The notes below the pieces were generated by a model, which saw nothing but the letters and a program-made list of their open reading frames with translations, made no database searches and was not told the origin of the DNA. The translations under genes and the position numbers were made by a program. Below, in pieces: positions 21,742-36,434 of a stretch of DNA of 64,000 nt (position 1 is the stretch's first letter; each line of letters opens with the position of its first letter). The DNA is from Verrucomicrobiaceae bacterium (GTDB lineage: Bacteria > Verrucomicrobiota > Verrucomicrobiia > Verrucomicrobiales > Verrucomicrobiaceae). The stretch covers positions 827 to 64,826 of the forward strand of contig JANOBO010000155.1 of NCBI GenBank assembly GCA_031411695.1. The letters run 5' to 3'.

Positions 21742-22467
21742 ATGAAAAAGCCCCCCTTCACCTCGCTCATCCTCGCGCTCGGCATCCTGCTTGGCCTTTT
21801 CTCCGGCATCGCCGCCGCGCAATCCGAATACATCATCGTCAGCGGCGGCCCCGCTCTCCGGCAGTGGGAGAATCTGCGCAAGAGCGGCGAGCAGCACGAC
21901 CGCTGGTGGGGAAACTTTGCGCGCACGGCGCGCGTCCGCCTTGAGGAAGTGCAAAAGCAGCAGCCGCCCGGCACCATCATCACCTGGCTCGTTTATCGCG
22001 ATGCCTATTTGCGCCGCGCAGGTGAGGACAGACAGCCGCTCACCAGCAACGTCGAGTCCGTGCGCGACAAGTACAACATCCGCCTCGTCTGGTTCCGCAC
22101 CGGTGACGACGTCATCAACTACATCAACAGCGGCATGAACCGCAGCCGGAACAAGATTTCAGGGTTCGAGTACTTCGGCCACTCGAACAAGTTCTGCTTC
22201 ATGTTCGACTACAGCTCGGACATCTACGGTGTCTCATCCTCGTGGCTGCACGAGGCCGACCTCAGAAAGATCCATCGCGGTTCCTTCGCCAAGAACGCCC
22301 TCTGTCAGAGTTGGGGCTGCCACACGGGCGAGAGCATGAGCACCTTTTGGAAAAAGGCCACCGGTGTCCCCATGATCGGTGCCTTTGGCAAGACCAACTA
22401 CTCCGACATGCATCTGCGCGGCTGGCGCGTCGGCCTCTCTCCCGGTGCCCACTGGCGCAAAGGTTAA
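21742..22467 (+). CDS. Secreted hypothetical protein
   Basis: 241 aa with a clear signal peptide, MKKPPFTSLILALGILLGLFSGIAAAQS. I recognise no family. The conserved-looking motifs are 'FEYFGHSNKF' and 'QSWGCHTGES'. Confidence 0.75.
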   Translation: MKKPPFTSLILALGILLGLFSGIAAAQSEYIIVSGGPALRQWENLRKSGEQHDRWWGNFARTARVRLEEVQKQQPPGTIITWLVYRDAYLRRAGEDRQPLTSNVESVRDKYNIRLVWFRTGDDVINYINSGMNRSRNKISGFEYFGHSNKFCFMFDYSSDIYGVSSSWLHEADLRKIHRGSFAKNALCQSWGCHTGESMSTFWKKATGVPMIGAFGKTNYSDMHLRGWRVGLSPGAHWRKG

Positions 22468-22491
22468 CCCGCACCCCACCACGCCGCCCTC

Positions 22492-23514
22492 ATGACTTTC
22501 CCGGACCTCCACCGCATCTATCATCAGCCGTTCTTCAAGCTGATCTCCCAGGCCCGCGCCGTGCATGAAGAGCACTGGCCCGCGAATGAAGTGCAGCTTT
22601 GCACCCTCCTCTCCATCAAGACCGGAGGCTGTAGCGAGGACTGCGGCTACTGCGCCCAGAGCTCGCGCTACAGCACCGGCGTACAGCGCGAGCAGCTCAT
22701 GGAAAAGGAGCAGGTCATGCAGCGCGCCACCGCAGCGCGCGCCGGCGGCTCCACCCGCTTCTGCATGGGTGCCGCCTGGAAAGGCGTGCGCAGCGGCACG
22801 GAAAAGTTCGAGCACGTCCTCGATATCGTCCGCGATGTCTCCACCCTCGGCATGGAAGTCTGCGTCACCCTCGGCGAACTCGGCCAGAACGAGGCGCGCG
22901 AGCTGAAGCAGGCCGGCGTCACCGCCTACAATCACAACATCGACACCTCCCCCGAGCATTACCCGAACGTCGTCACCACCCACACCTTCGACGATCGCCT
23001 CCGCACCATCCGCCACGCGCAGGATGCCGGCATGTCCGTCTGCTGCGGCGGCATCCTCGGCCTCGGTGAGGGCATCGACGACCGGCTGCGCATGCTCGAG
23101 GTGCTCAGCAATTTCAACCCCCAGCCCGAGAGCGTCCCCATCAACGCCCTCATGCCCATTGAAGGCACCCCCATGGGCGGCAATGAAGTCGTCGATTCCT
23201 TCGCCCTCATCCGCATGATCGCCGTCACCCGCATCGCCATCCCGCGAGCAAAGGTGCGCCTCAGCGCTGGCCGCACAAACCTCAGCAAAGAAGCCCAGAC
23301 CCTCTGCTTCTTCGCCGGCGCCAACTCCATCTTCTACGGCGACAAGCTCCTCACCACCGCCAACCCCCGCGCCAACGAAGACCTCGCCCTCCTCCGCGAA
23401 CTCGGCCTGTCCGCCCAGGCACCCGATCCATCTCTCGCCGCGCCCATCACAGACGAGAACCGGCCAACCTATCCCGTGTGCGAGGTTAAAGGCGGAGTTG
23501 GCTGCGGCGGCTGA
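22492..23514 (+). CDS. bioB: Biotin synthase (radical SAM)
   Basis: 'KTGGCSEDCGYCAQS' (CxxxCxxC), 'FCMGAAW', 'YNHNIDTS' and 'CCGGILGLGE' are present. Confidence 0.95.
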   Translation: MTFPDLHRIYHQPFFKLISQARAVHEEHWPANEVQLCTLLSIKTGGCSEDCGYCAQSSRYSTGVQREQLMEKEQVMQRATAARAGGSTRFCMGAAWKGVRSGTEKFEHVLDIVRDVSTLGMEVCVTLGELGQNEARELKQAGVTAYNHNIDTSPEHYPNVVTTHTFDDRLRTIRHAQDAGMSVCCGGILGLGEGIDDRLRMLEVLSNFNPQPESVPINALMPIEGTPMGGNEVVDSFALIRMIAVTRIAIPRAKVRLSAGRTNLSKEAQTLCFFAGANSIFYGDKLLTTANPRANEDLALLRELGLSAQAPDPSLAAPITDENRPTYPVCEVKGGVGCGG

Positions 23515-23631
23515 GCGTGGCAAAAGCCCCCGCACAGGCTCCTCACAGCAGACAGGAATGTCCGCATCACTGCTGACACTGATGTGAAACAGATACTGAA
23601 AGGGACTTGTCAGCGTCAATTGAGCGTCAGG

Positions 23632-24003
23632 TTAACGCCACAGGGCCGCGAGGAGGTAAGGGATGCTGCCAACCAAGGCCGCTGCGAGATACAGCAAAAG
23701 GAACCAACCAAGTGCAGCGAACGCACGCCATCCTCGCGTGCGGAAAAGATAAATCGGGACGAGCACAGGCCATGTGAAGAAAATGATTGAGCCAAAATCA
23801 TATGGCACTGGACGGCGCCGCTGGCGAGCATCCGCAAGGACCCAAAGCGCGATGCTGCTGGGGAGAAAAAGCTGGGCCAGCAAAGCGAGGAGGGAGTGAA
23901 CGCCGCTGGGAGAATCGAGCGTCGCGCGCGTGGCTAACGCAGCGAGGCAGTAAAACACGGAAGCTTCAAGCGAGAGAAACCATCGAAATGCCGGAAGTCT
24001 CAT
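23632..24003 (-). CDS. Small integral membrane protein, unknown function
   Basis: 123 aa with four hydrophobic segments and codon usage like its neighbours. I recognise no family. Confidence 0.6.
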   Translation of the reverse strand: MRLPAFRWFLSLEASVFYCLAALATRATLDSPSGVHSLLALLAQLFLPSSIALWVLADARQRRRPVPYDFGSIIFFTWPVLVPIYLFRTRGWRAFAALGWFLLLYLAAALVGSIPYLLAALWR

Positions 24004-24243
24004 AGAATAGTTCGGTCACAGGCCAAGCGCAGTCCCTCCGGACAGTGCGCTCACAAACCAAAATAGCGGCATGCATGCCAACGGCTCTATAGCCGACATT
24101 TGCAGGCTTTGCGACGGTGTTTCGACAGAGATGAAGCGTGATGGGAGTTGGCCGAAAGAGACGAAAAAAGGGAAAAACTGAGGCAAAGGCTTTTGCAGCC
24201 TTCTTTTGTTCACTTTGTTTTTTCGACTATCCAATCCTCTAGA

Positions 24244-25203
24244 ATGGACCCCTTGCCATCCCTCACTGAAATCGAAACGGCCATCGACTTGATCAGTCCG
24301 CACATGCAGGAAACACCCGCTTACCAGTGGCCTTTGCTGAATGCGGCAGTCGGCTGCGAGCTGTGGCTGAAGCACGAGAATCACACCCCGGCCGGCGCAT
24401 TCAAGATCCGGGGCGGTCTCGTCTATTTGAACGAGCTGAAACAGCGGCAGCCCGAAGTGCGCGGCGTGATCGCGGCATCGACGGGCAATCACGGTCAGTC
24501 CATCGCATTCGCAGCGCGATTGTCCGGCATGCGCGCCGTGATCGTGGTGCCGCATGGAAACAACCCGGAAAAGAACGCGGCAATGCGCTCCCTCGGCGCT
24601 GAACTCATCGAGCACGGGCGCGAGTTTCAGGAGGCGCTGGAGTTCTCGCGTGAGCTGGCGGAAAGGCAGGGGCTGCATGCCGTGCCTTCCTTTCATCCTT
24701 GGCTGGTCCGCGGTGTGGCCACCTATGCGATGCAGCTGTTTCGCGCGGTGGCCGATCTCGATGTCGTGTTCGTGCCCATCGGTCTGGGGTCGGGCTTTTG
24801 CGGCATCGCAGCGGCGCGTGCGGCGCTGAACCTGCAAACCAAAATCATCGGCGTCGTCTCCGAACAGGCGCCGGCCTACGCGCTGTCGTTTCAGCAAAAG
24901 AAACTCGTGACGCAATCCAGCGCGACGCGCGTGGCCGAAGGCGTCGCGTGCAGCACGCCGAATGCTGACGCGCTGCATTGGTTGATGCTGCACGCCCATG
25001 ATGTGGTGACTGTGAACGACGACGAGGCGGTGGCGGCGATGCGCGAGATCATCCAGGCCACACACAACATCGCGGAAGGAGCAGGCGCGCTGGCTTACGC
25101 GGCGTTGAAGAAGCATCGCGCGGAGTGGGAAGGCAGGCGCGTGGCCTGCGTGCTGACGGGCGGGAACGCGAGCATGAGCCTGCTGGCAAAAGCGCTGGCC
25201 TGA
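24244..25203 (+). CDS. PLP-dependent threonine dehydratase / serine-threonine ammonia-lyase family (no ACT domain)
   Basis: The start is taken at MDPLPSLTEIE (ATG 24244). 'ENHTPAGAFKIRGG' (PLP lysine), 'ASTGNHGQS' and 'PIGLGSGFCG' are present. Confidence 0.88.
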   Translation: MDPLPSLTEIETAIDLISPHMQETPAYQWPLLNAAVGCELWLKHENHTPAGAFKIRGGLVYLNELKQRQPEVRGVIAASTGNHGQSIAFAARLSGMRAVIVVPHGNNPEKNAAMRSLGAELIEHGREFQEALEFSRELAERQGLHAVPSFHPWLVRGVATYAMQLFRAVADLDVVFVPIGLGSGFCGIAAARAALNLQTKIIGVVSEQAPAYALSFQQKKLVTQSSATRVAEGVACSTPNADALHWLMLHAHDVVTVNDDEAVAAMREIIQATHNIAEGAGALAYAALKKHRAEWEGRRVACVLTGGNASMSLLAKALA

Positions 25204-25280
25204 CAGGTTGCTGCGCCCTCTATCACAGCCTCGTGCTGCGGGTTGCAATCTCTGCCTCTTCGCGCACTCTACGCGCCCGC

Positions 25281-26042
25281 ATGTCCGAACCTGATCCGCG
25301 CGAAATCATCCTCGAGGCCCGCGAGCTCACCCGTGAGTTCGAAGGGGTGAAGGCGCTGGACAAATTCAGCTTCAAACTGCATCGCGGAGAGATCCTCGGC
25401 CTGCTCGGCGCAAACGGCGCTGGCAAGACGACGGCAATGAACTGCCTGCTCGGACTCACGCTGCCAACATCGGGCCGCATCGAGGTTTTCGGCAAGGAGC
25501 TGCAGAAGCACCGCATCGAGATCCTTCAGCGCGCAAACTTTTCATCCGCGTATGTGAGCCTGCCGGGCAATCTGAAGGTGTGGCAGAACCTCCTCGTCTT
25601 CGCGCACATCTACGGCGTGCCGAATCCGAAGAAGAAGATCGCGGAGCTGCTCGAACTGCTGGAAGTGAGCGAGCTGCGCGACCGGGTCACCGGCCAGCTC
25701 TCTGCCGGTGAATCGACGCGGGTGAATCTCTGCAAGGCCTTTCTCAATGAGCCCGAGCTGCTGATGCTCGATGAGCCAACGGCAAGCCTCGATCCCGACA
25801 TCGCCGACAAGGTCCGCAAGGTGGTGCGCCGCGTGCAGTCTGAGCGGCAGATCGGCATCCTCTACACGTCGCACAACATGAAGGACATCGAGGAAGTCTG
25901 CGACCGCGTGATCTTCCTGCACAAGGGAAAGATTGTGGCGGAAGGCACTCCGGCGGAGATCGTCGAGCGCTCCAGCAGCAGCTCGCTGGAAGAAGTATTC
26001 ATCCAAATCGCGCGCGACGGAGACATCGTTGAATCCAAATGA
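25281..26042 (+). CDS. ABC transporter ATP-binding protein (ABC-2 type exporter)
   Basis: The start is taken at MSEPDPREIILEAR (ATG 25281). It has Walker A 'GANGAGKTT', signature 'LSAGESTR' and Walker B 'LLMLDEPT'. Confidence 0.93.
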   Translation: MSEPDPREIILEARELTREFEGVKALDKFSFKLHRGEILGLLGANGAGKTTAMNCLLGLTLPTSGRIEVFGKELQKHRIEILQRANFSSAYVSLPGNLKVWQNLLVFAHIYGVPNPKKKIAELLELLEVSELRDRVTGQLSAGESTRVNLCKAFLNEPELLMLDEPTASLDPDIADKVRKVVRRVQSERQIGILYTSHNMKDIEEVCDRVIFLHKGKIVAEGTPAEIVERSSSSSLEEVFIQIARDGDIVESK

Positions 26043-26836
26043 ACCTGCGAACCATCAGCGCGCTCGTCTTGCGCTACCTCTTTCTCTACACACGCTCACC
26101 GATGCGGCTGGTGGAGCTGGTTTTCTGGCCCGTCGTCGATCTCGTGGTATGGGGCAATGTCACCGTCTTCATCCAGCGCAACAGCACCGCGGACTTCGGC
26201 GGCTTCATCACCTTCATCCTCGGCGCGATGATCCTGTGGGACATCATGTTCCGCGCGCAGCAAGGCGTGGCCATCTCGTTTCTTGAGGACGTGTGGACGC
26301 GGAATCTGCTCAACGTCTTTGTCGCGCCCGTGCGCACTTCGGAATATCTCAGCGCCACGTTCTTCGTCGGCTTCCTGCGCATCCTCGTCACCGTCGTGGT
26401 GCTGGGTGTGATCTCGTACTTCGGATACTCGTTTAACATTTTCAGCCTGCACTGGTGGCTCATTCCATTCTTCGCGTGCCTGATGGTCTTCGGCTGGTCG
26501 CTCGGCATGATCTCCACCGCGCTGATCCTGCGCTGGGGTCAGGCGGCCGAATCGCTCGCGTGGGCCGTGCCGTTTTTTCTACAACCCGTGGTGGCTGCAT
26601 TTTATCCAGTCAAAGACATGCCTGCGTGGTCGCAACCCATCGCGTGGTGTCTGCCCGCCACTCACATCTTCGAAGGGATGCGCGAGGTGATGAAAACCGG
26701 CACCATGAGCTGGAGCGCGCTCGGCTGGGCTGCGGCGCTGAACGTGCTGTATCTCGCGCTGGCCGGGTGGCTGTTTGTCTGGGTCCTCGACCTCACGCGC
26801 AAGCGCGGCCTGCTCACGAAGTTCGCGACGCAGTAA
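26039..26836 (+). CDS. ABC-2 type transporter permease
   Basis: 265 aa, six hydrophobic segments, and a 4-nt overlap with the ATPase gene. Confidence 0.88.
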   Translation: MNLRTISALVLRYLFLYTRSPMRLVELVFWPVVDLVVWGNVTVFIQRNSTADFGGFITFILGAMILWDIMFRAQQGVAISFLEDVWTRNLLNVFVAPVRTSEYLSATFFVGFLRILVTVVVLGVISYFGYSFNIFSLHWWLIPFFACLMVFGWSLGMISTALILRWGQAAESLAWAVPFFLQPVVAAFYPVKDMPAWSQPIAWCLPATHIFEGMREVMKTGTMSWSALGWAAALNVLYLALAGWLFVWVLDLTRKRGLLTKFATQ

Positions 26837-26843
26837 TTTTCAA

Positions 26844-28703
26844 ATGCAAACCACAACCCTGCCGACCGACGAACCCGAATCCCTGCACCGCGCGGTGAGC
26901 GAGGCTGTGCGACGGCTGGCAGCGGGCGACATCGTGGCTTTGCCAACAGAGACGGTCTATGGCCTCGCGGCTGACGCGCTGGACGCGGACGCGGTCGCAA
27001 AGGTGTTCGCGGCAAAGGAGCGGCCGTCGTTTGATCCGCTGATCGTGCATGTGCCCACAAAGCAGGCTGTGCATGACGTGGCGGAGATTCCGGAGTCGAT
27101 CAAGAAAGTGGTGATCCAGCTCATTGAGCGCTTCTGGCCGGGGCCGCTCACGATCGTGCTGCCGAAGAAGGCGTGCGTGCCGGACATCGTGACCTCGGGT
27201 CTGCCGACCGTCGCGGTGCGCATGAGCTCGCATCCCGTTTTCAAGCGCATCAGCCAGGCGCTGGGGAAACCCATCGCCGCGCCGAGCGCGAATCGCTTTG
27301 GCTCGATCAGTCCGACATCCGCCTCGGCGGTGCAGGCCGAGCTTGATGGCCGCATCCCGCTGATCATTGATGGCGGCGCATGTTTGCACGGCATCGAATC
27401 AACGATCATCAAGATCGAGCCCGGCGGCACGACTTCAGAAAAAGTGGTGCAACCCGCTGGGTTGCCCTCAGAAAATGTGGGGCAAGCCGCTGGCTTGCCC
27501 GAGTCCGCTGCAACCCAGCGGGTAGCACCACCTTCAAAGCCGCTCATCACCATCCTGCGGCCGGGCCCGATCCTGCCGGACGATCTCAAGCAATATGGCC
27601 GTCTCCAACGCCACCAGAAGCAGCTGACCAACGAGCCGAGCGAGGCACCCGGTCAGCTCGCCTCCCACTACGCGCCGCGCACACCATTGCGGCTGCTCGA
27701 GTCACCGCGAGATTTCATCCCAGAGCCGGGGAAAAAATACGCGCTGCTGAGTTTTTGCGGTGATGCCGACGACGGCTACGTCGATCTCACAGACTGGGTA
27801 CAGGTGATGATCCTCAGCCCCGGCAACGGCAAGCTGCCCGAGGCTGCGGTGCGCTTCTTTTATGCTCTGCGCGAGCTGGACAAATGCGGCGCGGATGAAA
27901 TCATCGCCGAGCCGCTGCATGAGTTTGGCCTCGGCATTGCGATGATGGACCGGCTGCGCCGAGCGGCGAGCAAAGTGGGGCAACCCGCCGGGTTGCCCGA
28001 ATCCACTGCAACCCAGCGGGTTGCACCACTTTCGGCGGACGCGCCGGTTGCACCACCTTTCATTAACCTCTTCACGGATGTCTCGTACTTCGATCCGCGC
28101 GCAGACATCGAAAACGAAGAGCGCAATCTTCCGCACTGGCGTCAGCCCGGCAAAACCTACTTCGTGACCTACCTCTTGGGCGATGCGATCCCGCAGGAAA
28201 AACTGCGCCTGCTTCAGTCCGAGCGGAAGGCGTGGTTCGACTCTCACACGCAGCCTTGGTCGGACGAGGACCGGTTGCTCTATCACCAGCTTTTCTCCGC
28301 GCGCGTCCAAGACTGGCTCGATGCGGGCTACGGCTCATGCGTTTTGCTCGACGAGAAGGCCGCGCAAATTGTCGCGGACTCGCTTCGCCACTTTGATGGC
28401 CAGCGTTACGACCTGCTAGCGTGGGTGGTGATGCCGAATCACGTTCATGCGCTCGTGACGCCCAAAGATGGCTTTCATCTCGACCAAATTTTGCACTCCT
28501 GGAAATCCTTCACTGCGCATGAGATCAGCAAGCGACTCTCGCGCCACGGCCCGCTCTGGCAGCATGAGGGATACGATCACATCGTGCGGAAGCCGGAGGC
28601 GCTTTGGGCTATTGCCAAATATATTGCCGACAATCCGAAGAAAGCTGGCATCAGCACGCGGTTCGTCGAGTCACGAGTCACGCACACGCAGGATGGACGC
28701 TGA
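26844..28703 (+). CDS. tsaC: L-threonylcarbamoyladenylate synthase (Sua5/TsaC, YrdC + Sua5 domains) read through without a stop into a RAYT-like transposase domain
   Basis: The start is taken at MQTTTLPTDEP (ATG 26844, just after the upstream stop at 26836). The YrdC motifs are 'ALPTETVYGLAADA', 'KERPSFDPLIVHV' and 'SANRFGSISPT'. The Sua5 C-domain shows 'PGQLASHYAPRTPL...GLGIAMMDRLRRAAS'. The same frame then continues through REP sequence into the RAYT domain, up to TGA 28701-28703. Confidence 0.85.
   Translation: MQTTTLPTDEPESLHRAVSEAVRRLAAGDIVALPTETVYGLAADALDADAVAKVFAAKERPSFDPLIVHVPTKQAVHDVAEIPESIKKVVIQLIERFWPGPLTIVLPKKACVPDIVTSGLPTVAVRMSSHPVFKRISQALGKPIAAPSANRFGSISPTSASAVQAELDGRIPLIIDGGACLHGIESTIIKIEPGGTTSEKVVQPAGLPSENVGQAAGLPESAATQRVAPPSKPLITILRPGPILPDDLKQYGRLQRHQKQLTNEPSEAPGQLASHYAPRTPLRLLESPRDFIPEPGKKYALLSFCGDADDGYVDLTDWVQVMILSPGNGKLPEAAVRFFYALRELDKCGADEIIAEPLHEFGLGIAMMDRLRRAASKVGQPAGLPESTATQRVAPLSADAPVAPPFINLFTDVSYFDPRADIENEERNLPHWRQPGKTYFVTYLLGDAIPQEKLRLLQSERKAWFDSHTQPWSDEDRLLYHQLFSARVQDWLDAGYGSCVLLDEKAAQIVADSLRHFDGQRYDLLAWVVMPNHVHALVTPKDGFHLDQILHSWKSFTAHEISKRLSRHGPLWQHEGYDHIVRKPEALWAIAKYIADNPKKAGISTRFVESRVTHTQDGR
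27444..27531. repeat. REP family 1 cluster (REPIN-like) inside the sua5 interdomain linker
   Basis: The sequence is GTGGTGCAACCCGCTGGGTTGC ... GTGGGGCAAGCCGCTGGCTTGCCC GAGTCCGCT GCAACCCAGCGGGTAGCACCAC. The outer 22-mers are reverse complements of each other with 1 mismatch. Confidence 0.9.
27975..28058. repeat. REP family 1 doublet plus partial copy at the Sua5/RAYT junction
   Basis: GTGGGGCAACCCGCCGGGTTGCCC GAATCCACT GCAACCCAGCGGGTTGCACCAC lies at 27975-28029. An extra GGTTGCACCAC lies at 28047-28057. Confidence 0.9.
27975..28703 (+). mobile_element. REP-associated tyrosine transposase (RAYT, IS200/Y1 HUH family) domain
   Basis: 'NLPHWRQPGKTYFVTYLLGDAIP', the HUH motif 'LAWVVMPNHVHALVTP' and 'LWQHEGYDHIVRKPEALWAIAKYIADNPKKAGI' are present. 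There is no ATG between the end of Sua5 and the HUH motif. The only canonical in-frame start is the GTG at 27975, inside a REP. REP doublets flank it on both sides. Confidence 0.8.
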
Positions 28704-30384
28704 TCCAAAAGTGGGGCAAGCCTCAGAAAAAGTGGGGCAAGCCGCTGGCCTGCCCGAGTCCACTGCAACCCAGCGGGTAGCACCACATTCGAACTCCCAA
28801 GCCCGCTCCACCGGCGTCGTCTCCATCGCGATCCTTTGCAGCCGCGTGCTCGGACTGGTGCGCGACCAGTTGCTGAACGGCCTCTTTGGTTCCGCGTTCA
28901 CCGGCGTGTTCAGCATGGCGTTTCGCACCCCGAACATGCTGCGCGATCTCTTTGCCGAGGGCGCGCTTTCCACCGCGTTCGTCACCACGTTCTCGAAGAA
29001 GATGAAGACCGAGGGCGACGCTGCGGCTTGGCAGCTCGGGCGCAAAATGCTCTCACTCTCCGTCTGCTTCATGTCCATGGTCGCCCTCGCCGGCGTCGTG
29101 CTCGCGCCATGGATCTTCCGCCTGCTCACACCCGGCTTCTCCGAGGAGCACAAGATCCTCGGCATCTGGCTCGCGCAGATCATGTATCCCTTCATCGCCC
29201 TCGTCTCCGTCACCGCGCTGGTGATGGGCATGCTGAATGCGAAGAAAGTCTTCTTCATCCCCGCCCTCGCCTCCGCGTTCTTCAATCTCGGCTGCATCAT
29301 CGGCGGCGTCACCATCGCATGGGGGATCGATCCCGGCTTCCGCGATGGACATATCACCGAGCGCGGTCTCACCGGCTTCGCCATCGGCACCCTCATCGGC
29401 GGCGTGCTGCAGCTCCTCGTGCAGATCCCGTCGCTGCTGCGTGTCGGCTTCAAATTTGGACTCGACCTCGGATGGAAGGACTCCGGCGTGCGCGACGTGC
29501 TCCGCCTCATGTGGCCCTCGCTCCTCGCCGCCGGCGGCACGCAGATCACCGTGTTCATGAATTCCATCTTCGCCTCCATGACACCCGGCCACGCATCCTC
29601 CGTCGCCTGGCTCGGCAACGCGCAGCGGATGCAGCAGCTCCCGCTCGGCCTCTTCGGCGTCGCCGTCGCCACCGTCACGCTGCCCATGCTCTCTCGTCTC
29701 GCCACCGAGGGCATCACGCCCGCGTTCCGCGCCGCGCTGGCGAAAGGATTGCGCCTCGTGCTCTTCCTCACCCTGCCCTGCGCGCTCGGCCTCTCGCTGC
29801 TCGCGCATGAGATCATCTCCGTCATTTTCGAGCACGGAAAATTTACCGCCGATGACGTGACGCAGACCACCGGCCCGCTCCAGGCCTACGCCTTCGGCCT
29901 TGTCTTTTACTCCGCCGTGAAAGTGCTCCAGCCCGCTTTCTACACCATCGACCGTCGCTTCATCCCCATGATGATCAGCATCGGCATCATCATCTTCAAT
30001 CTCGTCGCAAACTACACGACCGTGATCGTGCTCGGCTGGGATCACAACGCCCTCGCCTGGGCCACCGCCATCGGTCTCGTGCTCAACTTCACCACGCTTT
30101 ACCTCTGCATGAGGAAATTCGCCAGCGGCCTCGAAACACGCACGCTCACTACCGCGCTGCTGCGGCTCGTCATTGCCGTCGCGCTCATGGCCGCCGTCTG
30201 CGTCGCCGCGCGCATGACAATCATGGCCGACTGGTCGCACCTCAGCCTGCTCATGCGCATAGGCACTCTCGGCGTCACCATCGCCGCCTCGGCGGCCGTG
30301 TATTTTTTCGCCACTGCTAAGCTCGGCATCGAGGAGTCGGGCGAGTTCCTGTCATTGCTCGGCAAGCGCTTCGGTCGTAAATAG
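28693..30384 (+). CDS. murJ: Lipid II flippase MurJ
   Basis: 'CSRVLGLVRDQLLNGLFGSAFTGVFSMAFRTPNMLRDLFAEGALSTAFV' is the MurJ N-terminal signature, and the protein has ~14 TM segments. The first usable starts are ATG 28693, GTG 28711 or GTG 28732, all upstream of or inside the REP. The track ORF begins at 28468, inside the RAYT domain. Confidence 0.9.
   Translation: MDADPKVGQASEKVGQAAGLPESTATQRVAPHSNSQARSTGVVSIAILCSRVLGLVRDQLLNGLFGSAFTGVFSMAFRTPNMLRDLFAEGALSTAFVTTFSKKMKTEGDAAAWQLGRKMLSLSVCFMSMVALAGVVLAPWIFRLLTPGFSEEHKILGIWLAQIMYPFIALVSVTALVMGMLNAKKVFFIPALASAFFNLGCIIGGVTIAWGIDPGFRDGHITERGLTGFAIGTLIGGVLQLLVQIPSLLRVGFKFGLDLGWKDSGVRDVLRLMWPSLLAAGGTQITVFMNSIFASMTPGHASSVAWLGNAQRMQQLPLGLFGVAVATVTLPMLSRLATEGITPAFRAALAKGLRLVLFLTLPCALGLSLLAHEIISVIFEHGKFTADDVTQTTGPLQAYAFGLVFYSAVKVLQPAFYTIDRRFIPMMISIGIIIFNLVANYTTVIVLGWDHNALAWATAIGLVLNFTTLYLCMRKFASGLETRTLTTALLRLVIAVALMAAVCVAARMTIMADWSHLSLLMRIGTLGVTIAASAAVYFFATAKLGIEESGEFLSLLGKRFGRK
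28711..28786. repeat. REP family 1 doublet immediately 3' of the RAYT stop, inside the murJ 5' end
   Basis: GTGGGGCAAGCC tcagaaaaa GTGGGGCAAGCCGCTGGCCTGCCC GAGTCCACT GCAACCCAGCGGGTAGCACCAC. Confidence 0.9.
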
Positions 30385-30396
30385 TGCGCGACTTTT

Positions 30397-30996
30397 ATGA
30401 ACCGCCATCGCCCCTGGCTCATCGCACTCACCGCACTCGTTCCGTTGTGGTTGGCCGTCGCCGTCGTGCAGCACCTGACGGACGACGACATCTCATCACC
30501 CGAGGAGACGATTGCCATCCTGGCCGATGCGCCCTGGCTGCACCCAGAAGCAGGGGCGGCATCCATCACGGCACGGGCCGCCCACATCGAGCTGGCGATC
30601 AAGAACATGAACCTGCTGAACTTCGAGCAGCGTCGCGAGGTGCGTGAAACCGGCGCGGACACGCTGAAGCAGTTCTTCGACTCGCTGACGCCGGAGGAGC
30701 GGAAAGTCTATGTGGACCGCACCGTGCAAAAGGCTTTCGACGCGGTGATCAAAGGCTTCAAGGCGATGGCACCCGCCGAGAGAAAAGACATGGTGAACCG
30801 CGTGCGCCGCGGCATCCGCCCAAACCGCACCGGACCCGACGCGCAGAAGATCGCGGATGAAGATCAGAAGATGTTCGACGAGTTCATCGACCTCGGCATC
30901 GAGGACTATCTGAAGAACGCGAGCACCGAAGAGAAGATGAAACTCGCGCCAGCAATCGAAGACATGCAGACACGAATCCGAGGCATTGGCCGGTGA
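30397..30996 (+). CDS. Hypothetical membrane-anchored protein
   Basis: 199 aa with an N-terminal TM segment 'PWLIALTALVPLWLAVAVV', followed by a charged helical region. I recognise no family. Confidence 0.7.
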   Translation: MNRHRPWLIALTALVPLWLAVAVVQHLTDDDISSPEETIAILADAPWLHPEAGAASITARAAHIELAIKNMNLLNFEQRREVRETGADTLKQFFDSLTPEERKVYVDRTVQKAFDAVIKGFKAMAPAERKDMVNRVRRGIRPNRTGPDAQKIADEDQKMFDEFIDLGIEDYLKNASTEEKMKLAPAIEDMQTRIRGIGR

Positions 30997-31000
30997 ACGA

Positions 31001-31058
31001 AAAGGTGGTGCAATCCGCTGCATTGCACTCTTAATGGCAAGCCAGCGGCATTTGCCAC
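31001..31058. repeat. Diverged REP family 1 copy (two hairpins)
   Basis: The sequence is aaaGGTGGTGCAATccgctgCATTGCAC tcttaa TGGCAAgccagcggcaTTTGCCAC. It shares the AAAGGTGGTGCAA leader with the 27444 and 34582 copies. Confidence 0.6.
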
Positions 31059-31160
31059 TTATGGCCCTCATCGATATTCAGCGTTCCCGGTCATGACACC
31101 GAGGGAGCGAAGCGGTCCCAAGGCTAGGAGAATCCATTTGCTGATGAGGAGCGGACGTGA

Positions 31161-31496
31161 TTGCTTCGCATCATGGTTTCAATGGAGGACATCCAGCGCT
31201 ACTGCAATGAGATTGCCGAAGCGTTCAAGCCGCAGAAGATCATCCTCTTCGGCTCTCACGCCTATGGGCGGCCGCACCGTGATTCCGATGTCGATGTGCT
31301 GGTGGTCATGCCTGAACATCGGCGTGCGGGGTATCACACCGTCATCAAGATCCGCGAAAAAGTTCGAGGACGCTTTCCCGTGGACCTTCTCGTGCGTGGC
31401 AGCCGCGACATCGCGCGCCGAGTCGAGGATCGTGAGTCGTTCATCCTCGACATCACAGAGAACGGGAGGGTCATGTATGAGGCGGGCCACGCATGA
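31161..31496 (+). CDS. Nucleotidyltransferase-domain protein (MntA-like antitoxin)
   Basis: 'ILFGSHAYGRPHRDSDVDVLVV' is the GS...D.D minimal nucleotidyltransferase motif. The start is uncertain (31161, 31173 or 31182). Confidence 0.8.
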   Translation: MLRIMVSMEDIQRYCNEIAEAFKPQKIILFGSHAYGRPHRDSDVDVLVVMPEHRRAGYHTVIKIREKVRGRFPVDLLVRGSRDIARRVEDRESFILDITENGRVMYEAGHA

Positions 31497-31857
31497 GTGG
31501 ATCAAAAAGGCGGAGGAGGATTTTCAGGCTGCTCTGGTGCTCTCGCGACAACGGAAGACGCCACTGCGTGACGCTGTCTGCTTTCACTGTCAGCAGAGCG
31601 CCGAGAAGTATCTCAAAGCGAGGCGGGAAGAAGCTGGGGTGCGCATCCCAAAAACACATGACCTTGAAGATTTGCTGAACCTCGCGACTCCTTTTGAGCC
31701 CCTGTGGACGGCGCTCGCACCTCCGCTCCGAAGACTCACGCCTTTTGGCGTGAAAATTCGTTATCCCGGCAATGAGGCCACTGACTCGCAGGTGAAAATG
31801 TCGACGCAGGACGTAAAGGTGGTCCGCAAAGAAGTCCGATTTGCCCTTGGACTCTGA
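31477..31857 (+). CDS. HEPN-domain protein (HepT-like toxin partner)
   Basis: This is the C-terminal 126 aa of track ORF 31093..31857, starting MRRATHEWIKKAEEDF. 'QQSAEKYLKA', 'HDLEDLL' and 'KIRYPG' are typical of PF05168-type HEPN. It overlaps the nucleotidyltransferase gene by 20 nt. Confidence 0.8.
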   Translation: MRRATHEWIKKAEEDFQAALVLSRQRKTPLRDAVCFHCQQSAEKYLKARREEAGVRIPKTHDLEDLLNLATPFEPLWTALAPPLRRLTPFGVKIRYPGNEATDSQVKMSTQDVKVVRKEVRFALGL

Positions 31858-33807: not shown

Positions 33808-34764
33808 ATGATTCGCATGAGGTTGATCGAAACGGTGACGGCGCTGCGCGAGTGGCGGTGTGAGAATGCGGCGCGCGTCTTCTTCGTGCCAACGATGGGC
33901 GCGCTGCACGAAGGGCACGCGGCGCTGGTGCGTGAGGCGCGGCGGATGGCTGGCGAGGACGGCCGTGTGGCGGTCAGCATCTTTGTGAACCCGCTGCAGT
34001 TCGGGCCAAATGAGGATCTGGATCGTTACCCGCGCACGCTGGAGGCTGATCTCGCGATGTGCGAGGCGGCGGGTGCGGACATGGTTTTCGCGCCGCCAGT
34101 TCGAGAAGTGTATTTTGAGAACAGGTCGATCCACATCGCCGAGTCGAGCCTGTCGCACGTCCTGTGCGGCGCGAGCAGGCCCGGACACTTCGACGGCGTG
34201 TGCACAGTGGTGGCAAAGCTGTTCAATCTCGTGCAACCGGATGACGCGGTCTTCGGCAAGAAGGACTACCAGCAGCTCTCGATCATCCGAAGGCTGCTGC
34301 GTGATCTGAATTTTCCGGTCGAGATCCACGGCCTGGAGACGGTGCGCGAGGCTGATGGGCTGGCGATGAGTTCGCGGAATCGTTACTTGAATGCTGACGA
34401 GCGTGCGCAGGCACCGACGTTGCGGCGTGCTTTGATCGCGGCGCGTGAAGCGTGGCTCGGCGGTGCGGAGGATGCGCGGGAGCTTGAGAAGATCGTCCGA
34501 GATGAAATCGCGGCGCACTCTCCACTTGGGAGGATCGACTATGTCTCGTGTGTCGATGCGGGTTCGCTCCGCGAACTAAAAGTGGTGCAAGCCGCTGGCT
34601 TGCAGCCGTCAGTGAAGGGCACAGCCAAACCCGATGGACTCCCTCCTGCAACCCAGCGGGTTGCACCACTTTTCGCAACCGAGCCGGTTGCATCACTTTT
34701 GGCGGGGGCGGTCTTTTTTGGTGCGACACGGCTGATCGACAACATCGAGCTGCGGCATCAATAA
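33808..34764 (+). CDS. panC: Pantoate--beta-alanine ligase with an in-frame REP-derived insertion near the C-terminus
   Basis: 'FVPTMGALHEGHAALV', 'VSIFVNPLQFGPNEDL' and 'KDYQQL' are present. The C-terminal 'ATRLIDNIEL' is preceded by ~40 extra aa (KVVQAAGLQPSVKGTAKPDGLPPATQRVAPLFATEPVASLL), encoded by REPs at 34582-34696. Confidence 0.93.
   Translation: MIRMRLIETVTALREWRCENAARVFFVPTMGALHEGHAALVREARRMAGEDGRVAVSIFVNPLQFGPNEDLDRYPRTLEADLAMCEAAGADMVFAPPVREVYFENRSIHIAESSLSHVLCGASRPGHFDGVCTVVAKLFNLVQPDDAVFGKKDYQQLSIIRRLLRDLNFPVEIHGLETVREADGLAMSSRNRYLNADERAQAPTLRRALIAAREAWLGGAEDARELEKIVRDEIAAHSPLGRIDYVSCVDAGSLRELKVVQAAGLQPSVKGTAKPDGLPPATQRVAPLFATEPVASLLAGAVFFGATRLIDNIELRHQ
34582..34696. repeat. 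REP family 1 cluster inside panC
   Basis: GTGGTGCAAGCCGCTGGCTTGC lies at 34582-34603, GCAACCCAGCGGGTTGCACCAC at 34648-34669 and GCAACCGAGCCGGTTGCATCAC at 34675-34696. Confidence 0.9.
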
Positions 34765-34765
34765 A

Positions 34766-34826
34766 GTGGTGCAAGCCGCTGGCTTGCGGCCATGATCGAT
34801 GACTGCAACCGAGTCGGTTGCACCAC
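34766..34826. repeat. Intergenic REPIN (two inverted family 1 REPs) between panC and nadB
   Basis: The sequence is aaaGTGGTGCAAGCCGCTGGCTTGC ggccatgatcgatgact GCAACCGAGTCGGTTGCACCACttt. It starts 2 nt after the panC stop and ends 3 nt before the nadB ATG. Confidence 0.9.
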
Positions 34827-34829
34827 TTT

Positions 34830-36434
34830 ATGAAGGAATACGATTTCATCGTTGTCGGCACGGGAGCGGGCGGTCTGAGCGCGGCGCTGCATGCGGCGGA
34901 GCACGGCCGCGTGGTGGTGCTGACGAAGCGCGGCGTGGACGACTCAAACTCGACCTGGGCGCAGGGCGGCATCGCGTGCGTGCAGAGCGAGGAAGACTCC
35001 ATCGAGCAGCATGTGAGCGACACACTCATCGCCGGCGGGGGCCTGTGCAACGAGTCGGCGGTGCGCACCATCGTCACGGAGGGCCCCGCGCGGATCGAGG
35101 AGCTGGTGAAGTGGGGCGTTCACTTTGATCAACGCGAGGCGACGGACGGGCACCTGGAATTCGACCTCACCCGCGAGGGCGGCCACACCCGGCGGCGCGT
35201 GCTGCATTCGCGCGATGCCACAGGTCGTGAGCTGACAGAGAAGCTGATCGCTGCGGTGCGGGCGCATCCGAACATCGAAGTGCTCGAGGAACACTTTGCC
35301 ATCGACCTCATCACAACCGCGAAGCTCGGTCATGTGGCGGAGGATCGCGTGCTCGGACTTTATGTGCTCGATGAGAAAAGCGGCGAGGTGGAGACCTTCC
35401 GATCGGACCGCGTGATCCTCGCGACGGGCGGCTGCGGGCGAGTTTATCTTTATACAACGAACCCGCAGATCGCGACCGGCGACGGGGTGGCGATGGCTTG
35501 GCGGGCGGGCGCGGCGGTGTCGAACATGGAGTTCATCCAGTTTCATCCGACGTGCCTCTACCATGCGGAGAACCGCTCCTTTCTCATCACCGAAGCGATG
35601 CGCGGCGAAGGTGCGCGGCTTGTGGACAAGGAAGGCAACGAATTCATGCAGAAGTACGACGAGCGCGGGTCTCTCGCGCCGCGTGACATCGTGGCCCGCG
35701 CGATCGACCACGAGATCAAGCGCACTGGCGGACCCTGCGTGTATCTCGACATCAGCCACAAGCCGGCAGAGTTCATCATCGAGCACTTCCCCAACATCCA
35801 CCGCGCCTGCCTCGAGCTGGACATCGACATCACCAAGCAGCCGATCCCCGTGGTGCCTGCCGCGCATTATCAATGCGGCGGCGTGCTCACTGACATCAAC
35901 GGAGCCACGACGATCCGCGGACTGGCCGCCGTGGGCGAGGTGGGCTGCACGGGCCTGCACGGCGCGAACCGCCTCGCCAGCAACTCGCTGCTCGAGTGCC
36001 TCGTCGTCTCGAAGCGCGCGGTCGATTTCATTTTGCAAAAGCTCCCCGTCGGCAAGACGCAGACACAGAGCTACGAGATCCCGCTGTGGAAACGCGGTGA
36101 CGCGCAGGACGTGGACGAACTCGTGGTCATCTACCACAACTGGGACGAGATCCGCCGGCTGATGTGGGACTATGTCTCCATCGTGCGCACCAACAAACGG
36201 CTCCAACGCGCGGCCGCGCGGCTGCGAAACCTGAAGCGCGAGGTGCAGGAGTTTTACTGGAACTTCCGCATCACCAGCGAGCTCCTCGAACTGCGAAACC
36301 TCGTCGAGACCGCGACACTCATCGTCGATTGCGCTGTGCGCCGTCAGGAAAGCCGCGGGCTGCATTACACGCTGGATTTCCCGGCTCCAAATCACTCCCG
36401 GCCGCCGACAGACACGGTCCTGCGGCGATATTGA
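34830..36434 (+). CDS. nadB: L-aspartate oxidase
   Basis: The start is taken at MKEYDFIVVGTGAGGLSAAL (ATG 34830). The track ORF starts at a TTG at 34818, inside the REP. 'TWAQGGIA', 'FIQFHPT', 'EAMRGEGA' and 'GLHGANRLASNSLLE' are present. Confidence 0.95.
   Translation: MKEYDFIVVGTGAGGLSAALHAAEHGRVVVLTKRGVDDSNSTWAQGGIACVQSEEDSIEQHVSDTLIAGGGLCNESAVRTIVTEGPARIEELVKWGVHFDQREATDGHLEFDLTREGGHTRRRVLHSRDATGRELTEKLIAAVRAHPNIEVLEEHFAIDLITTAKLGHVAEDRVLGLYVLDEKSGEVETFRSDRVILATGGCGRVYLYTTNPQIATGDGVAMAWRAGAAVSNMEFIQFHPTCLYHAENRSFLITEAMRGEGARLVDKEGNEFMQKYDERGSLAPRDIVARAIDHEIKRTGGPCVYLDISHKPAEFIIEHFPNIHRACLELDIDITKQPIPVVPAAHYQCGGVLTDINGATTIRGLAAVGEVGCTGLHGANRLASNSLLECLVVSKRAVDFILQKLPVGKTQTQSYEIPLWKRGDAQDVDELVVIYHNWDEIRRLMWDYVSIVRTNKRLQRAAARLRNLKREVQEFYWNFRITSELLELRNLVETATLIVDCAVRRQESRGLHYTLDFPAPNHSRPPTDTVLRRY

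What the first reader, a model, noticed from the sequence alone, without database searches (positions are those of the whole stretch)
26844..28703. Essential t6A enzyme Sua5/TsaC reads through in frame into the RAYT domain: no stop, and no ATG for the transposase
The Sua5 C-domain ends with its usual '...GLGIAMMDRLRRAAS' at ~27971. Instead of a stop, the frame continues K-V-G-Q-P-A-G-L-P-E-S-T-A-T-Q-R-V-A-P (REP-encoded), then 'SYFDPRADIENEERNLPHW...', which looks like the very N-terminus of a stand-alone RAYT. No ATG/GTG/TTG lies in frame between the REP and the LPHW motif. The only canonical candidate start is the GTG at 27975, inside the REP itself. There are three possibilities. A Sua5-RAYT fusion protein may be made. 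The RAYT may start from the REP-borne GTG. Or a REP-associated rearrangement removed the sua5 stop and the RAYT start and inactivated the transposase.
Basis: seen in the sequence. Interest (0 to 1): 0.72.

Follow-up and report, generated by a model that had tools for sequence, protein, structure and literature searches.

The report
Sua5 fused in-frame to REP transposase
An essential tRNA-modification enzyme (Sua5) really does read straight through a short palindromic repeat into an intact repeat-associated transposase (RAYT), and this transposase family turns out to sit in frame inside or behind many housekeeping genes, apparently using them for its own expression.

Summary
Window 26844-28703 is one 619-codon ORF: Sua5 (YrdC and Sua5_C domains), about 29 REP-encoded linker residues, then a complete RAYT with its LPHW, HUH and YxxNP motifs.

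It is not an assembly error. A separate MAG contig (L081, 99.05% identical, 89 SNPs, no indels) carries the same ORF. Between the two strains the RAYT part shows 13 synonymous and 3 non-synonymous changes, omega about 0.07, the same as sua5 and murJ.

In relatives, sua5 ends ...AAKF-stop and is followed directly by murJ, or by a separate REP-flanked RAYT. In the window a GTGG-type REPIN sits on the Lys codon, so Phe and the stop are gone. GTAG-type REPs in other relatives supply the sua5 TAG stop. A distant relative (L041) shows an independent fusion at the same codon.

The only canonical internal starts, GTG 27975 and TTG 27993, lie inside a -55 kcal/mol hairpin.

Wider context: 26 of 70 sampled metagenome RAYT loci have the RAYT, flanked by REP-coded linkers, in frame inside host genes. 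Hosts include CarB (six times, same site), LeuRS, ValRS, AlaRS, ClpB, PriA, DinG-like helicases, MgsA and HsdR. XseA, HypF and Dtd hosts came from the protein searches. I found no description of this in the literature I searched.

Verdict: a real translational fusion, and a new variant of the known REPtron.

The parts
26844..27971 (+). sua5 / tsaC2 part of the fused ORF (YrdC-like domain and Sua5 C-terminal domain), ending ...MMDRLRRAAS
   Evidence: Pfam PF01300 and PF03481; TIGR00057 at 166 bits against a cutoff of 123. It is 87% identical to Sua5 of L001 outside the insertion.
27426..27538 (+). In-frame REPIN cluster inside sua5. It adds 35 residues (aa 195-229, GTTSEKVVQPAGLPSENVGQAAGLPESAATQRVAP) in the IEPG/SPKP hairpin loop.
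   Evidence: The insertion is missing from all six relatives aligned in A2, and Sua5 matches in the 80 relatives are about 324-345 codons against 376 here. REP copies at 27444-27467, 27477-27500 and 27508-27531.
27972..28060 (+). Junction REPIN (arms 27972-27996 and 28008-28032) plus a partial REP at 28043-28060. It encodes the linker KVGQPAGLPESTATQRVAPLSADAPVAPP and contains GTG 27975 and TTG 27993.
   Evidence: Inverted repeat I2, 25 nt, 92% complementary. RNA fold -54.9 kcal/mol, z -4.8. No SNPs against L081. Linker pLDDT below 50.
28059..28703 (+). RAYT (TnpAREP-type Y1 HUH nuclease) domain, 214 aa plus the TGA stop. LPHW at 28128-28139, HUH histidines at 28440-28448, catalytic Tyr at 28620-28622.
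   Evidence: NF047646 at 82.8 bits, above the cutoff of 80. Every column that is invariant across all 23 aligned sequences, the window included, falls within this domain. The AF2 core has pLDDT above 90 and its best PDB match is 4ER8. Omega 0.07 against L081.
28693..30384 (+). murJ. Its ATG overlaps the RAYT stop by 11 nt, and its N-terminal tail (MDADPKVGQASEKVGQAAGLPESTATQRVAPHSNSQ...) is REP-encoded.
   Evidence: Pfam MurJ at aa 64-522. Same call, 563 aa, in L081. Relatives start MSE(E/D)..K..ARSTG.
28707..28790 (+). Right-hand REP cluster of the REPtron, lying inside the murJ 5' coding region
   Evidence: REP copies at 28707-28722, 28732-28755 and 28763-28786. 93% identical over 73 nt to the copy inside sua5 (family D1).

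Best explanation
A REPtron (REPIN, RAYT gene, REPs) sits in the roughly 10-bp gap between sua5 and murJ of a tightly packed operon in a Verrucomicrobiaceae genome.

Its left REPIN starts on the Lys codon of the ancestral sua5 end (...AAKF-stop). This REP family carries GTGG instead of the usual GTAG tag, so it supplies no TAG stop. Its stop-free frame is also the RAYT frame.

Every ribosome that translates sua5 therefore continues through about 29 disordered Pro/Ala/Gly-rich REP-encoded residues into an intact RAYT. It stops at the RAYT TGA, which overlaps the murJ ATG. The product is a 619-aa Sua5-linker-RAYT protein.

Shown: ORF continuity in two strains, purifying selection on the RAYT frame, the insertion point, an independent recurrence, and in-frame embedding of related RAYTs in other host genes.

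Inferred: the fusion is the main or only source of RAYT in this organism; the flexible linker lets both domains fold and work; the element relies on the host gene's transcription and translation start instead of its own.
For: - One ORF, three domains.
- L081, an independent assembly at 99.05% identity with no indels, has the same 619-aa gene call.
- RAYT part: 13 synonymous against 3 non-synonymous differences, omega 0.07, binomial P 1e-6. The other two frames give omega above 1. sua5 and murJ both give 0.07.
- Every column invariant across all 23 aligned sequences, the window included, covers the LPHW, HUH and Y motifs. The fold matches TnpAREP 4ER8, and the linker has pLDDT below 50.
- Relatives: sua5 is directly followed by murJ in most loci; 13 loci have a separate RAYT there.
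- The ancestral sua5 end ...AAKF-stop is seen in L001 and L038.
- GTAG REPs supply the sua5 TAG in eight loci.
- L041 is fused through a REP at the same Lys codon. Its Sua5 is 88-89% identical to unfused L038, L042 and L044 but only 70% to the window, so the two fusions are independent.
- P0268 is a Sua5 with a REP-coded tail at the same codon.
- GTG 27975 and TTG 27993 lie in a 23-bp stem, -55 kcal/mol.
- dtd-RAYT single ORFs with REP linkers occur in nine protein clusters. Two were checked at the DNA level (L082, L083), and both are followed by spoU.
- 26 of 70 metagenome RAYT loci are in frame inside host genes, and 23 of the 26 keep the Y motif.
Against: - There are no expression data, so the fusion protein is inferred from sequence alone.
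- The window's RAYT has Leu at a near-invariant Arg (YFVT[FY]RL). L081 keeps Arg.
- 13 of the 16 RAYT SNPs lie in one 73-nt tract, probably a single recombination import, so the omega estimate rests on few independent events.
- Among the 14 sua5-RAYT-murJ loci (13 relatives plus the window), 4 have RAYT in the sua5 frame. That is what chance gives, so the frame match itself needs no selection.
- No other Sua5-RAYT fusion was found among 1.84 billion cluster representatives or in the junction search.
- A separate RAYT started inside the REP cannot be excluded.
- Whether the genome has a second tsaC/sua5 copy is unknown.
Confidence: 0.7

Rival explanations
1. Two products. Besides the unavoidable read-through chain, a free RAYT of about 240 aa starts at the REP-borne GTG 27975 or TTG 27993, or at a non-canonical ATT 28062, and this free form is the active one.
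For: Gene callers start related RAYTs at REP-borne GTG or TTG: P0002 at GTG inside GTAGTG, and the 214-aa forms at a TTG conserved in eight loci. L041 has an ATG in the REP loop, in frame. L038, L042 and L044 encode RAYTs with REP-coded N-terminal leaders. This genome shows no Shine-Dalgarno signal, so a missing SD says nothing against it.
Against: Both canonical starts are base-paired in a -55 kcal/mol hairpin. With no upstream stop there can be no termination-reinitiation coupling. Embedded RAYTs in CarB, LeuRS and similar hosts show that the family tolerates being part of a host chain.
Confidence: 0.25
2. Accidental, inert cargo. The REP insertion removed the stop by chance, the RAYT part is a tolerated C-terminal tail with no activity of its own, and it is beginning to decay.
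For: The frame match is at the chance rate, 4 of 14 loci. The window carries Arg-to-Leu at a near-invariant position. The closest relative, L001, has no RAYT at all. No other Sua5-RAYT fusion exists in the large libraries.
Against: Omega is 0.07 in the RAYT frame and above 1 in the other frames. All catalytic motifs are intact. There is an independent recurrence (L041), and dtd-RAYT fusions are long-lived. REPIN copies within the window are 93% alike, which argues against long-dead repeats.
Confidence: 0.2
3. Sequencing or assembly artefact: an indel in the hairpin-rich junction hides the true sua5 stop.
For: REP hairpins are error-prone for some sequencing platforms, and no reads were available to check.
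Against: A second assembly that differs at 89 positions has an identical structure with no gaps over 9,327 bp. A different genus-level lineage (L041) shows the same kind of junction. The synonymous bias shows that the downstream frame is the one being read.
Confidence: 0.02

Closest known systems
REPtron: RAYT / TnpAREP gene flanked by its REPs (E. coli yafM; PDB 4ER8; PMC3333891, PMC3479197, PMC6006769)
   Same: HUH and Tyr motifs. Best sequence and fold match is 4ER8. NF047646 scores above its cutoff. Cognate REPs flank the gene on both sides and are scattered nearby as inverted pairs (REPINs).
   Different: The gene has no start or 5' boundary of its own and is the C-terminal domain of an essential host ORF. 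It has an extra N-terminal region of about 90 aa (LPHW...YFVTFRL plus two helices). The REP tag is GTGG rather than GTAG.
Intragenic in-frame REPs / RPEs (Rickettsia RPEs; Opitutus terrae GTAG-20 elements; Di Nocera et al. 2013, PMC3733652)
   Same: REPs are translated inside functional genes, here sua5, panC and the murJ tail. REP termini lie at stop codons. The paper reports both a GTGG variant and the highest intragenic REP count in a verrucomicrobium.
   Different: Those reports concern repeats encoding 20-80 aa only. Here, and in CarB, LeuRS and other hosts, the whole transposase gene of about 210 aa is in frame with the host gene.
Inteins
   Same: Selfish protein-coding inserts in frame inside essential, often nucleic-acid-handling, proteins. 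They recur at the same site in related genomes (CarB six times).
   Different: No splicing motifs or conserved junction nucleophiles are present; the junctions are variable REP-coded peptides. The insert presumably stays in the mature protein.
Host-transposase fusion genes in eukaryotes (e.g. SETMAR; my own knowledge, not checked here)
   Same: A transposase domain is joined to a host protein in one ORF and kept under purifying selection.
   Different: Those arise by exon capture and splicing and usually keep only the DNA-binding domain. Here the fusion is direct, bacterial and made by repeat insertion, and the catalytic residues are retained.

Membership tests
RAYT / TnpAREP (REP-associated tyrosine transposase, Y1 HUH) | HUH motif and catalytic Tyr (YxxxNP), with matches to the family models | tested here: met
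   PNHVHAL and YIADNP are present. Pfam Y1_Tnp scores 28 bits against a cutoff of 23. NF047646 scores 82.8 bits against a cutoff of 80 for the 214-aa part, but 78.4 bits, just below the cutoff, when the whole 619-aa protein is scored.
RAYT / TnpAREP | TnpAREP-like fold | tested here: met
   The AF2 core has pLDDT above 90. The best Foldseek PDB match is 4ER8_A (E 9e-7, TM-score 0.57 normalised to the target), followed by IS200/IS605 TnpA structures.
RAYT / TnpAREP | Gene flanked by cognate REPs that also occur elsewhere in the genome | tested here: met
   REPINs lie on both sides of the gene (27972-28060 and 28707-28790). Further copies lie at 27435-27538 and 34578-34826, against 0 expected by chance.
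RAYT / TnpAREP | Cleaves or joins REP hairpin ssDNA | not testable with these tools
   This needs biochemistry with the purified fusion and with the isolated domain.
Sua5 / TsaC2 (threonylcarbamoyl-AMP synthase) | YrdC-like domain with its catalytic motifs, plus the Sua5 C-terminal domain | tested here: met
   PF01300 at 176 bits, PF03481 at 80 bits, TIGR00057 at 166 bits against a cutoff of 123. The PTETVYGL, KERP and SANRFG motifs are invariant in alignment A2.
Translational fusion (single polypeptide) | No stop codon between the domains, reproducible across assemblies | tested here: met
Translational fusion (single polypeptide) | The fused protein is detected in cells | not testable with these tools
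   No transcriptome, Ribo-seq or proteome data are available for this organism.
Intein | Conserved splice-junction residues (N-terminal Cys/Ser; C-terminal His-Asn followed by Cys/Ser/Thr) | tested here: not met
   The junctions are variable REP-coded peptides with no conserved nucleophiles in the window, the six CarB loci, XseA, HypF or DinG. This was checked by eye, not with a model.

The most novel reading that the evidence does not exclude
This PVC-type RAYT clade has a lifestyle that I could not find described. The REP-RAYT-REP unit works as an in-frame cassette with no start codon of its own, and often no stop. It lodges in surface loops or at the ends of housekeeping proteins, including CarB, LeuRS, ValRS, AlaRS, ClpB, PriA, DinG, XseA, HypF, MgsA, Dtd and Sua5. 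It is translated as a passenger domain joined by REP-encoded flexible linkers, so it takes its expression from genes the host cannot switch off. Divergent RAYT alleles replace one another at fixed sites: the host gene is 99% identical while the RAYT is only 57-69% identical. The Sua5-RAYT ORF in this window is the C-terminal version of that strategy.
Probability: 0.45. Interest if true: 0.85.

Novelty: new variant of a known kind. Interest (0 to 1): 0.68.

Why it matters
RAYTs are regarded as domesticated, single-copy, separately expressed genes. How they are expressed and why they persist are both unclear.

A RAYT whose only evident route to translation is the ORF of an essential t6A enzyme ties its expression and its survival to a gene the cell cannot lose. 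Relatives embedded in CarB, tRNA synthetases, ClpB or PriA show the same dependence. This gives a concrete, testable model for the long-term persistence of REPIN/RAYT systems.

There are practical consequences too. Annotation pipelines and earlier surveys discard or mislabel such long proteins, for example naming stand-alone RAYTs 'type I restriction enzyme R subunit'. REP-encoded peptides also appear to act as natural, well-tolerated interdomain linkers.

Tried and rejected
- **Out-of-frame ATG 28078 as a remnant RAYT start.** Rejected. It arises from the Asp-Val codons that align with Asp-Phe of homologues.
- **murJ needing a REP-borne GTG start**, which would have been an argument for REP-borne starts in general. 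Rejected. murJ has ATG 28693, matching the ATG of relatives.
- **Shine-Dalgarno scoring to judge the internal starts.** Uninformative. Gene starts in this window are no more SD-like than random positions.
- **Exact look-up of the 619-aa protein.** Not on record. The neighbouring ABC permease led to L081 instead.
- **Search for other Sua5-RAYT fusions.** None was found among the 1.84 billion representatives or with a junction query. The only hit of note was P0268, a Sua5 with a REP-coded tail.
- **Single shared origin of the window and L041 fusions.** Rejected on the identity matrices and on the retained ...KF-stop in the nearest relatives of each.
- **Literature searches for in-frame RAYT fusions**. 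I found only a remark that over-long TnpAY1 proteins were discarded as 'gene fusions or annotation errors' (PMC6006769).
- **Source names of the embedded examples**. All come from metagenomes or MAGs, so no isolate genome was confirmed.
Full report
**1. The observation**

Window 26844-28703 (+) is one open reading frame of 619 codons. Pfam places Sua5_yciO_yrdC at aa 25-192, Sua5_C at aa 258-376 and Y1_Tnp at aa 520-596. NCBIfam calls the first part threonylcarbamoyl-AMP synthase (TIGR00057, above its cutoff). The last 214 aa scored alone reach REP_Tyr_transpos at 82.8 bits, cutoff 80.

The Sua5 domain ends ...MMDRLRRAAS at 27971. What follows is encoded by a REPIN, two inverted REPs at 27972-27996 and 28008-28032 that are 92% complementary, plus a partial third REP at 28043-28060. 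The REP motif GTGG(G/T)GCAA(G/C)CCGC(T/C)GG(C/G)TTGC occurs 6-8 times in the window against none in shuffles.

There are two canonical in-frame starts inside the REP, GTG 27975 and TTG 27993. After them only ATT 28062 and ATC 28107 precede LPHW.

**2. Is it real?**

The exact 619-aa protein is not on record. The neighbouring ABC permease led to contig JANPJX010000075.1 of GCA_031425775.1 (L081). There a gene caller predicted a 619-aa Sua5_yciO_yrdC, Sua5_C and Y1_Tnp protein, followed by a 563-aa MurJ.

L081 matches window 22388-31714 at 99.05%, with 89 mismatches and no gaps. It is therefore a different strain and a different assembly with the same structure.

Across the fused ORF the differences are strongly synonymous:

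| Region | Synonymous | Non-synonymous | Omega |
|---|---|---|---|
| Sua5 part | 15 | 3 | 0.07 |
| RAYT part | 13 | 3 | 0.07 |
| murJ | 10 | 2 | 0.07 |

For the RAYT part the binomial P is 1e-6. Read in the other two frames, the same SNPs give omega above 1. The frame shared with sua5 is therefore the one that selection sees.

Two caveats apply. Thirteen of the 16 RAYT SNPs lie in a 73-nt tract (28157-28229) that looks like one recombination import. The window strain also has Leu at a near-invariant Arg (YFVT[FY]RL), whereas L081 has Arg.

**3. How the junction arose**

A scan of one genome per species with the Sua5 part gave 80 loci, mostly annotated as Verrucomicrobiaceae (Prosthecobacter, Brevifollis), with some more distant Akkermansiaceae/Verrucomicrobiales records.

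- In most of them murJ follows sua5 within about 50 nt.
- In 13 loci a RAYT homologue (57-62% identical) lies between the two genes.
- The closest relative, L001 (Sua5 87% identical), has no RAYT. Its sua5 ends ...RRAAAKF-TGA, four bases before the murJ ATG.
- L038, L042, L043 and L044 end ...RRAAVKF-TAA and have a separate RAYT downstream.
- In eight further loci sua5 ends on a TAG that is part of a GTAG-tagged REP (GTAGTGCAACCG...CGGTTGCAG). The RAYT there has no ATG, only REP-borne GTG or TTG candidates.

That GTAG REPs supply stop codons, and that a GTGG variant predominates in one REP family of the verrucomicrobium Opitutus terrae, is published (PMC3733652).

In the window the REP (AAAGTGGGG...) begins on the Lys codon of the ancestral ...AAKF-stop. 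Phe and the stop are gone, and the GTGG tag offers no TAG.

L041 (CAZKMS010000032.1) has the same arrangement: RRAAA-KVGQASCLRESGESATKMVAPLSFYQTLHYFDP..., open through to the RAYT stop. Its Sua5 is 88-89% identical to unfused L038, L042 and L044 and 70% to the window, so the two fusions arose independently.

P0268 is a third lineage with a REP at the same codon. Its Sua5 ends ...RRAAVKAGQPSSLPESRSATGTVAPPSE-stop.

Among the 14 loci with a RAYT (13 relatives plus the window), four have it in the sua5 frame. That is the chance rate, so the frame match itself needs no special explanation.

**4. The rest of the anatomy**

murJ starts at ATG 28693 and overlaps the RAYT TGA (28701-28703). Its first residues, MDADPK, match the MSEDPK of L001. 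The right-hand REPs of the REPtron (28707-28790) are then translated as part of the MurJ N-terminal tail.

sua5 itself carries a 35-aa in-frame REPIN insertion (aa 195-229). It is absent from the six relatives aligned in A2, and the shorter Sua5 match lengths of all 80 relatives agree. panC (33808-34764) carries about 42 extra REP-coded residues.

All translated REPINs in the window are read in the same frame. From sua5 to murJ there is therefore no non-coding DNA; the repeats lie inside coding sequence. Intragenic in-frame REPs of this kind are already documented, most abundantly in O. terrae (PMC3733652).

**5. Is the RAYT made on its own?**

Stand-alone relatives usually start at an ATG 18-25 codons before LPHW. 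The window has none.

GTG 27975 and TTG 27993 lie in the left arm of a 23-bp REPIN stem. The RNA fold is -54.9 kcal/mol with z -4.8.

Gene starts in this window show no Shine-Dalgarno signal above background, so SD scoring cannot decide the question.

Whatever happens at these codons, sua5 has no stop, so the read-through chain must be made whenever sua5 is translated. An AlphaFold model of the linker plus RAYT gives pLDDT below 50 for the first 30 or so REP-encoded residues and above 90 for the core. The best PDB match is TnpAREP bound to a REP hairpin (4ER8). The linker looks like a flexible tether.

**6. Wider context**

The RAYT search returned nine clusters in which D-Tyr-tRNA deacylase (Dtd) and RAYT form one ORF through REP-coded linkers such as ...VTIVLES-VERASRPF...GRDARST...FDP. 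Two were checked at the DNA level, and both are followed by spoU (L082 and L083).

The search of 1.84 billion representatives found no second Sua5-RAYT. It did find the RAYT inside XseA, HypF (between the YrdC-like and Kae1-like domains), a DinG-like helicase, ValRS, LeuRS and restriction-modification enzymes. Palindromic REP peptides lie on both sides.

A metagenome scan returned 80 RAYT loci. In 70 of them the motifs could be located, and in 26 the frame stays open for hundreds of codons on both sides. Pfam identified these hosts:

- CarB in six contigs, always at the same point of the oligomerisation domain
- LeuRS in three contigs
- DinG-like helicases in two
- ValRS, AlaRS, ClpB, PriA, MgsA and HsdR
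- DNA methylases

The CarB sequence continues correctly after the insert. In L099 the insert is bounded by 49-nt inverted REP doublets. Twenty-three of the 26 embedded copies keep the Tyr motif, at a constant spacing of 170-174 residues.

At fixed sites the RAYT is far more divergent than its host:

| Pair | Host gene identity | RAYT identity |
|---|---|---|
| L120 vs L129 | CarB 99% | 69% |
| L038 vs L044 | Sua5 99% | 57% |

This points to cassette replacement or very fast evolution.

For inserts in the middle of genes such as carB or leuS, the host protein can only be made by translating through the RAYT. Being part of a host chain is therefore a normal state for this clade. All of these examples come from metagenomes or MAGs.

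**7. Comparison with what is known**

The element is a REPtron by every feature I could test: motifs, family model, fold and flanking cognate REPs.

Two things are new. Here the RAYT has lost its own 5' boundary and is the C-terminal domain of an essential enzyme. More generally, whole RAYT genes, not just REPs, sit in frame in host genes.

[quoted passage not shown] Inteins are the nearest analogy in where they insert, but no splice motifs are present.

**8. Verdict**

The most likely reading (0.7) is a genuine Sua5-linker-RAYT protein, created when a stop-less GTGG-type REP landed on the penultimate sua5 codon, with the RAYT part still under selection.

A co-existing free RAYT from a REP-borne start (0.25) and an inert tail (0.2) remain possible. 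These are not all mutually exclusive.

Novelty: a new variant of a known kind. Interest: 0.68. That score comes mainly from the locus exposing a broader and apparently undescribed habit of this RAYT clade.

Noticed in passing
window 27426-27538: sua5 carries an in-frame 35-aa REPIN insertion in the IEPG/SPKP hairpin loop. It is absent from the six relatives aligned, and the shorter Sua5 matches of all 80 relatives agree.
   Followed up: yes
window 33808-34830: panC has about 42 extra REP-coded residues near its C-terminus (34578-34700). Another REPIN (34766-34826) starts right after the panC TAA stop codon and ends 4 nt before the nadB-like ATG at 34831.
   Followed up: partly
window 28693-28800: The murJ ATG overlaps the RAYT stop by 11 nt, and the MurJ N-terminal tail is REP-encoded. 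All translated REPINs in the window use the same frame and orientation (KV[GV]Q[AP]AGL...QRVAP).
   Followed up: partly
window 28157-28229, compared with L081: 13 SNPs fall within 73 nt of the RAYT and are mostly synonymous (11 of 13). This looks like an imported recombination tract. At 28174 the window has Leu where L081 and more than 90% of the family have Arg.
   Followed up: partly
L038 vs L044; L120 vs L129: At the same insertion site the host genes are 99% identical (Sua5, CarB) but the RAYTs are only 57% and 69% identical. This suggests that RAYT cassettes are swapped at fixed sites.
   Followed up: partly
L090, L096, L099, L111, L120, L129 (CarB); L121, L133, L136 (LeuRS); L085 (ValRS); L134 (AlaRS); L148 (ClpB); L115 (PriA); L123, L127 (DinG-like); L131, L161 (MgsA); L100 (HsdR); P0136 (XseA); P0242 (HypF): Complete RAYT domains with REP-coded linkers lie in frame inside housekeeping and restriction-modification genes. 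These account for 26 of the 70 metagenome loci examined.
   Followed up: partly
L082 3001-4113; L083 732-1844; P0049, P0056, P0061, P0077, P0082, P0083, P0113, P0116: dtd (D-Tyr-tRNA deacylase) and RAYT form one ORF through a REPIN. This recurs across clusters, and spoU follows in both loci that were inspected.
   Followed up: partly
whole window: Upstream regions of the 31 long ORFs pair with the anti-Shine-Dalgarno sequence no better than random positions do. This organism seems not to rely on SD-led initiation.
   Followed up: no
one search hit list (P0013, P0021, P0022, P0095): JGI names several stand-alone RAYTs 'type I restriction enzyme R subunit'. This is probably annotation transferred from HsdR proteins that carry an embedded RAYT, as in L100 and P0107.
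   Followed up: no
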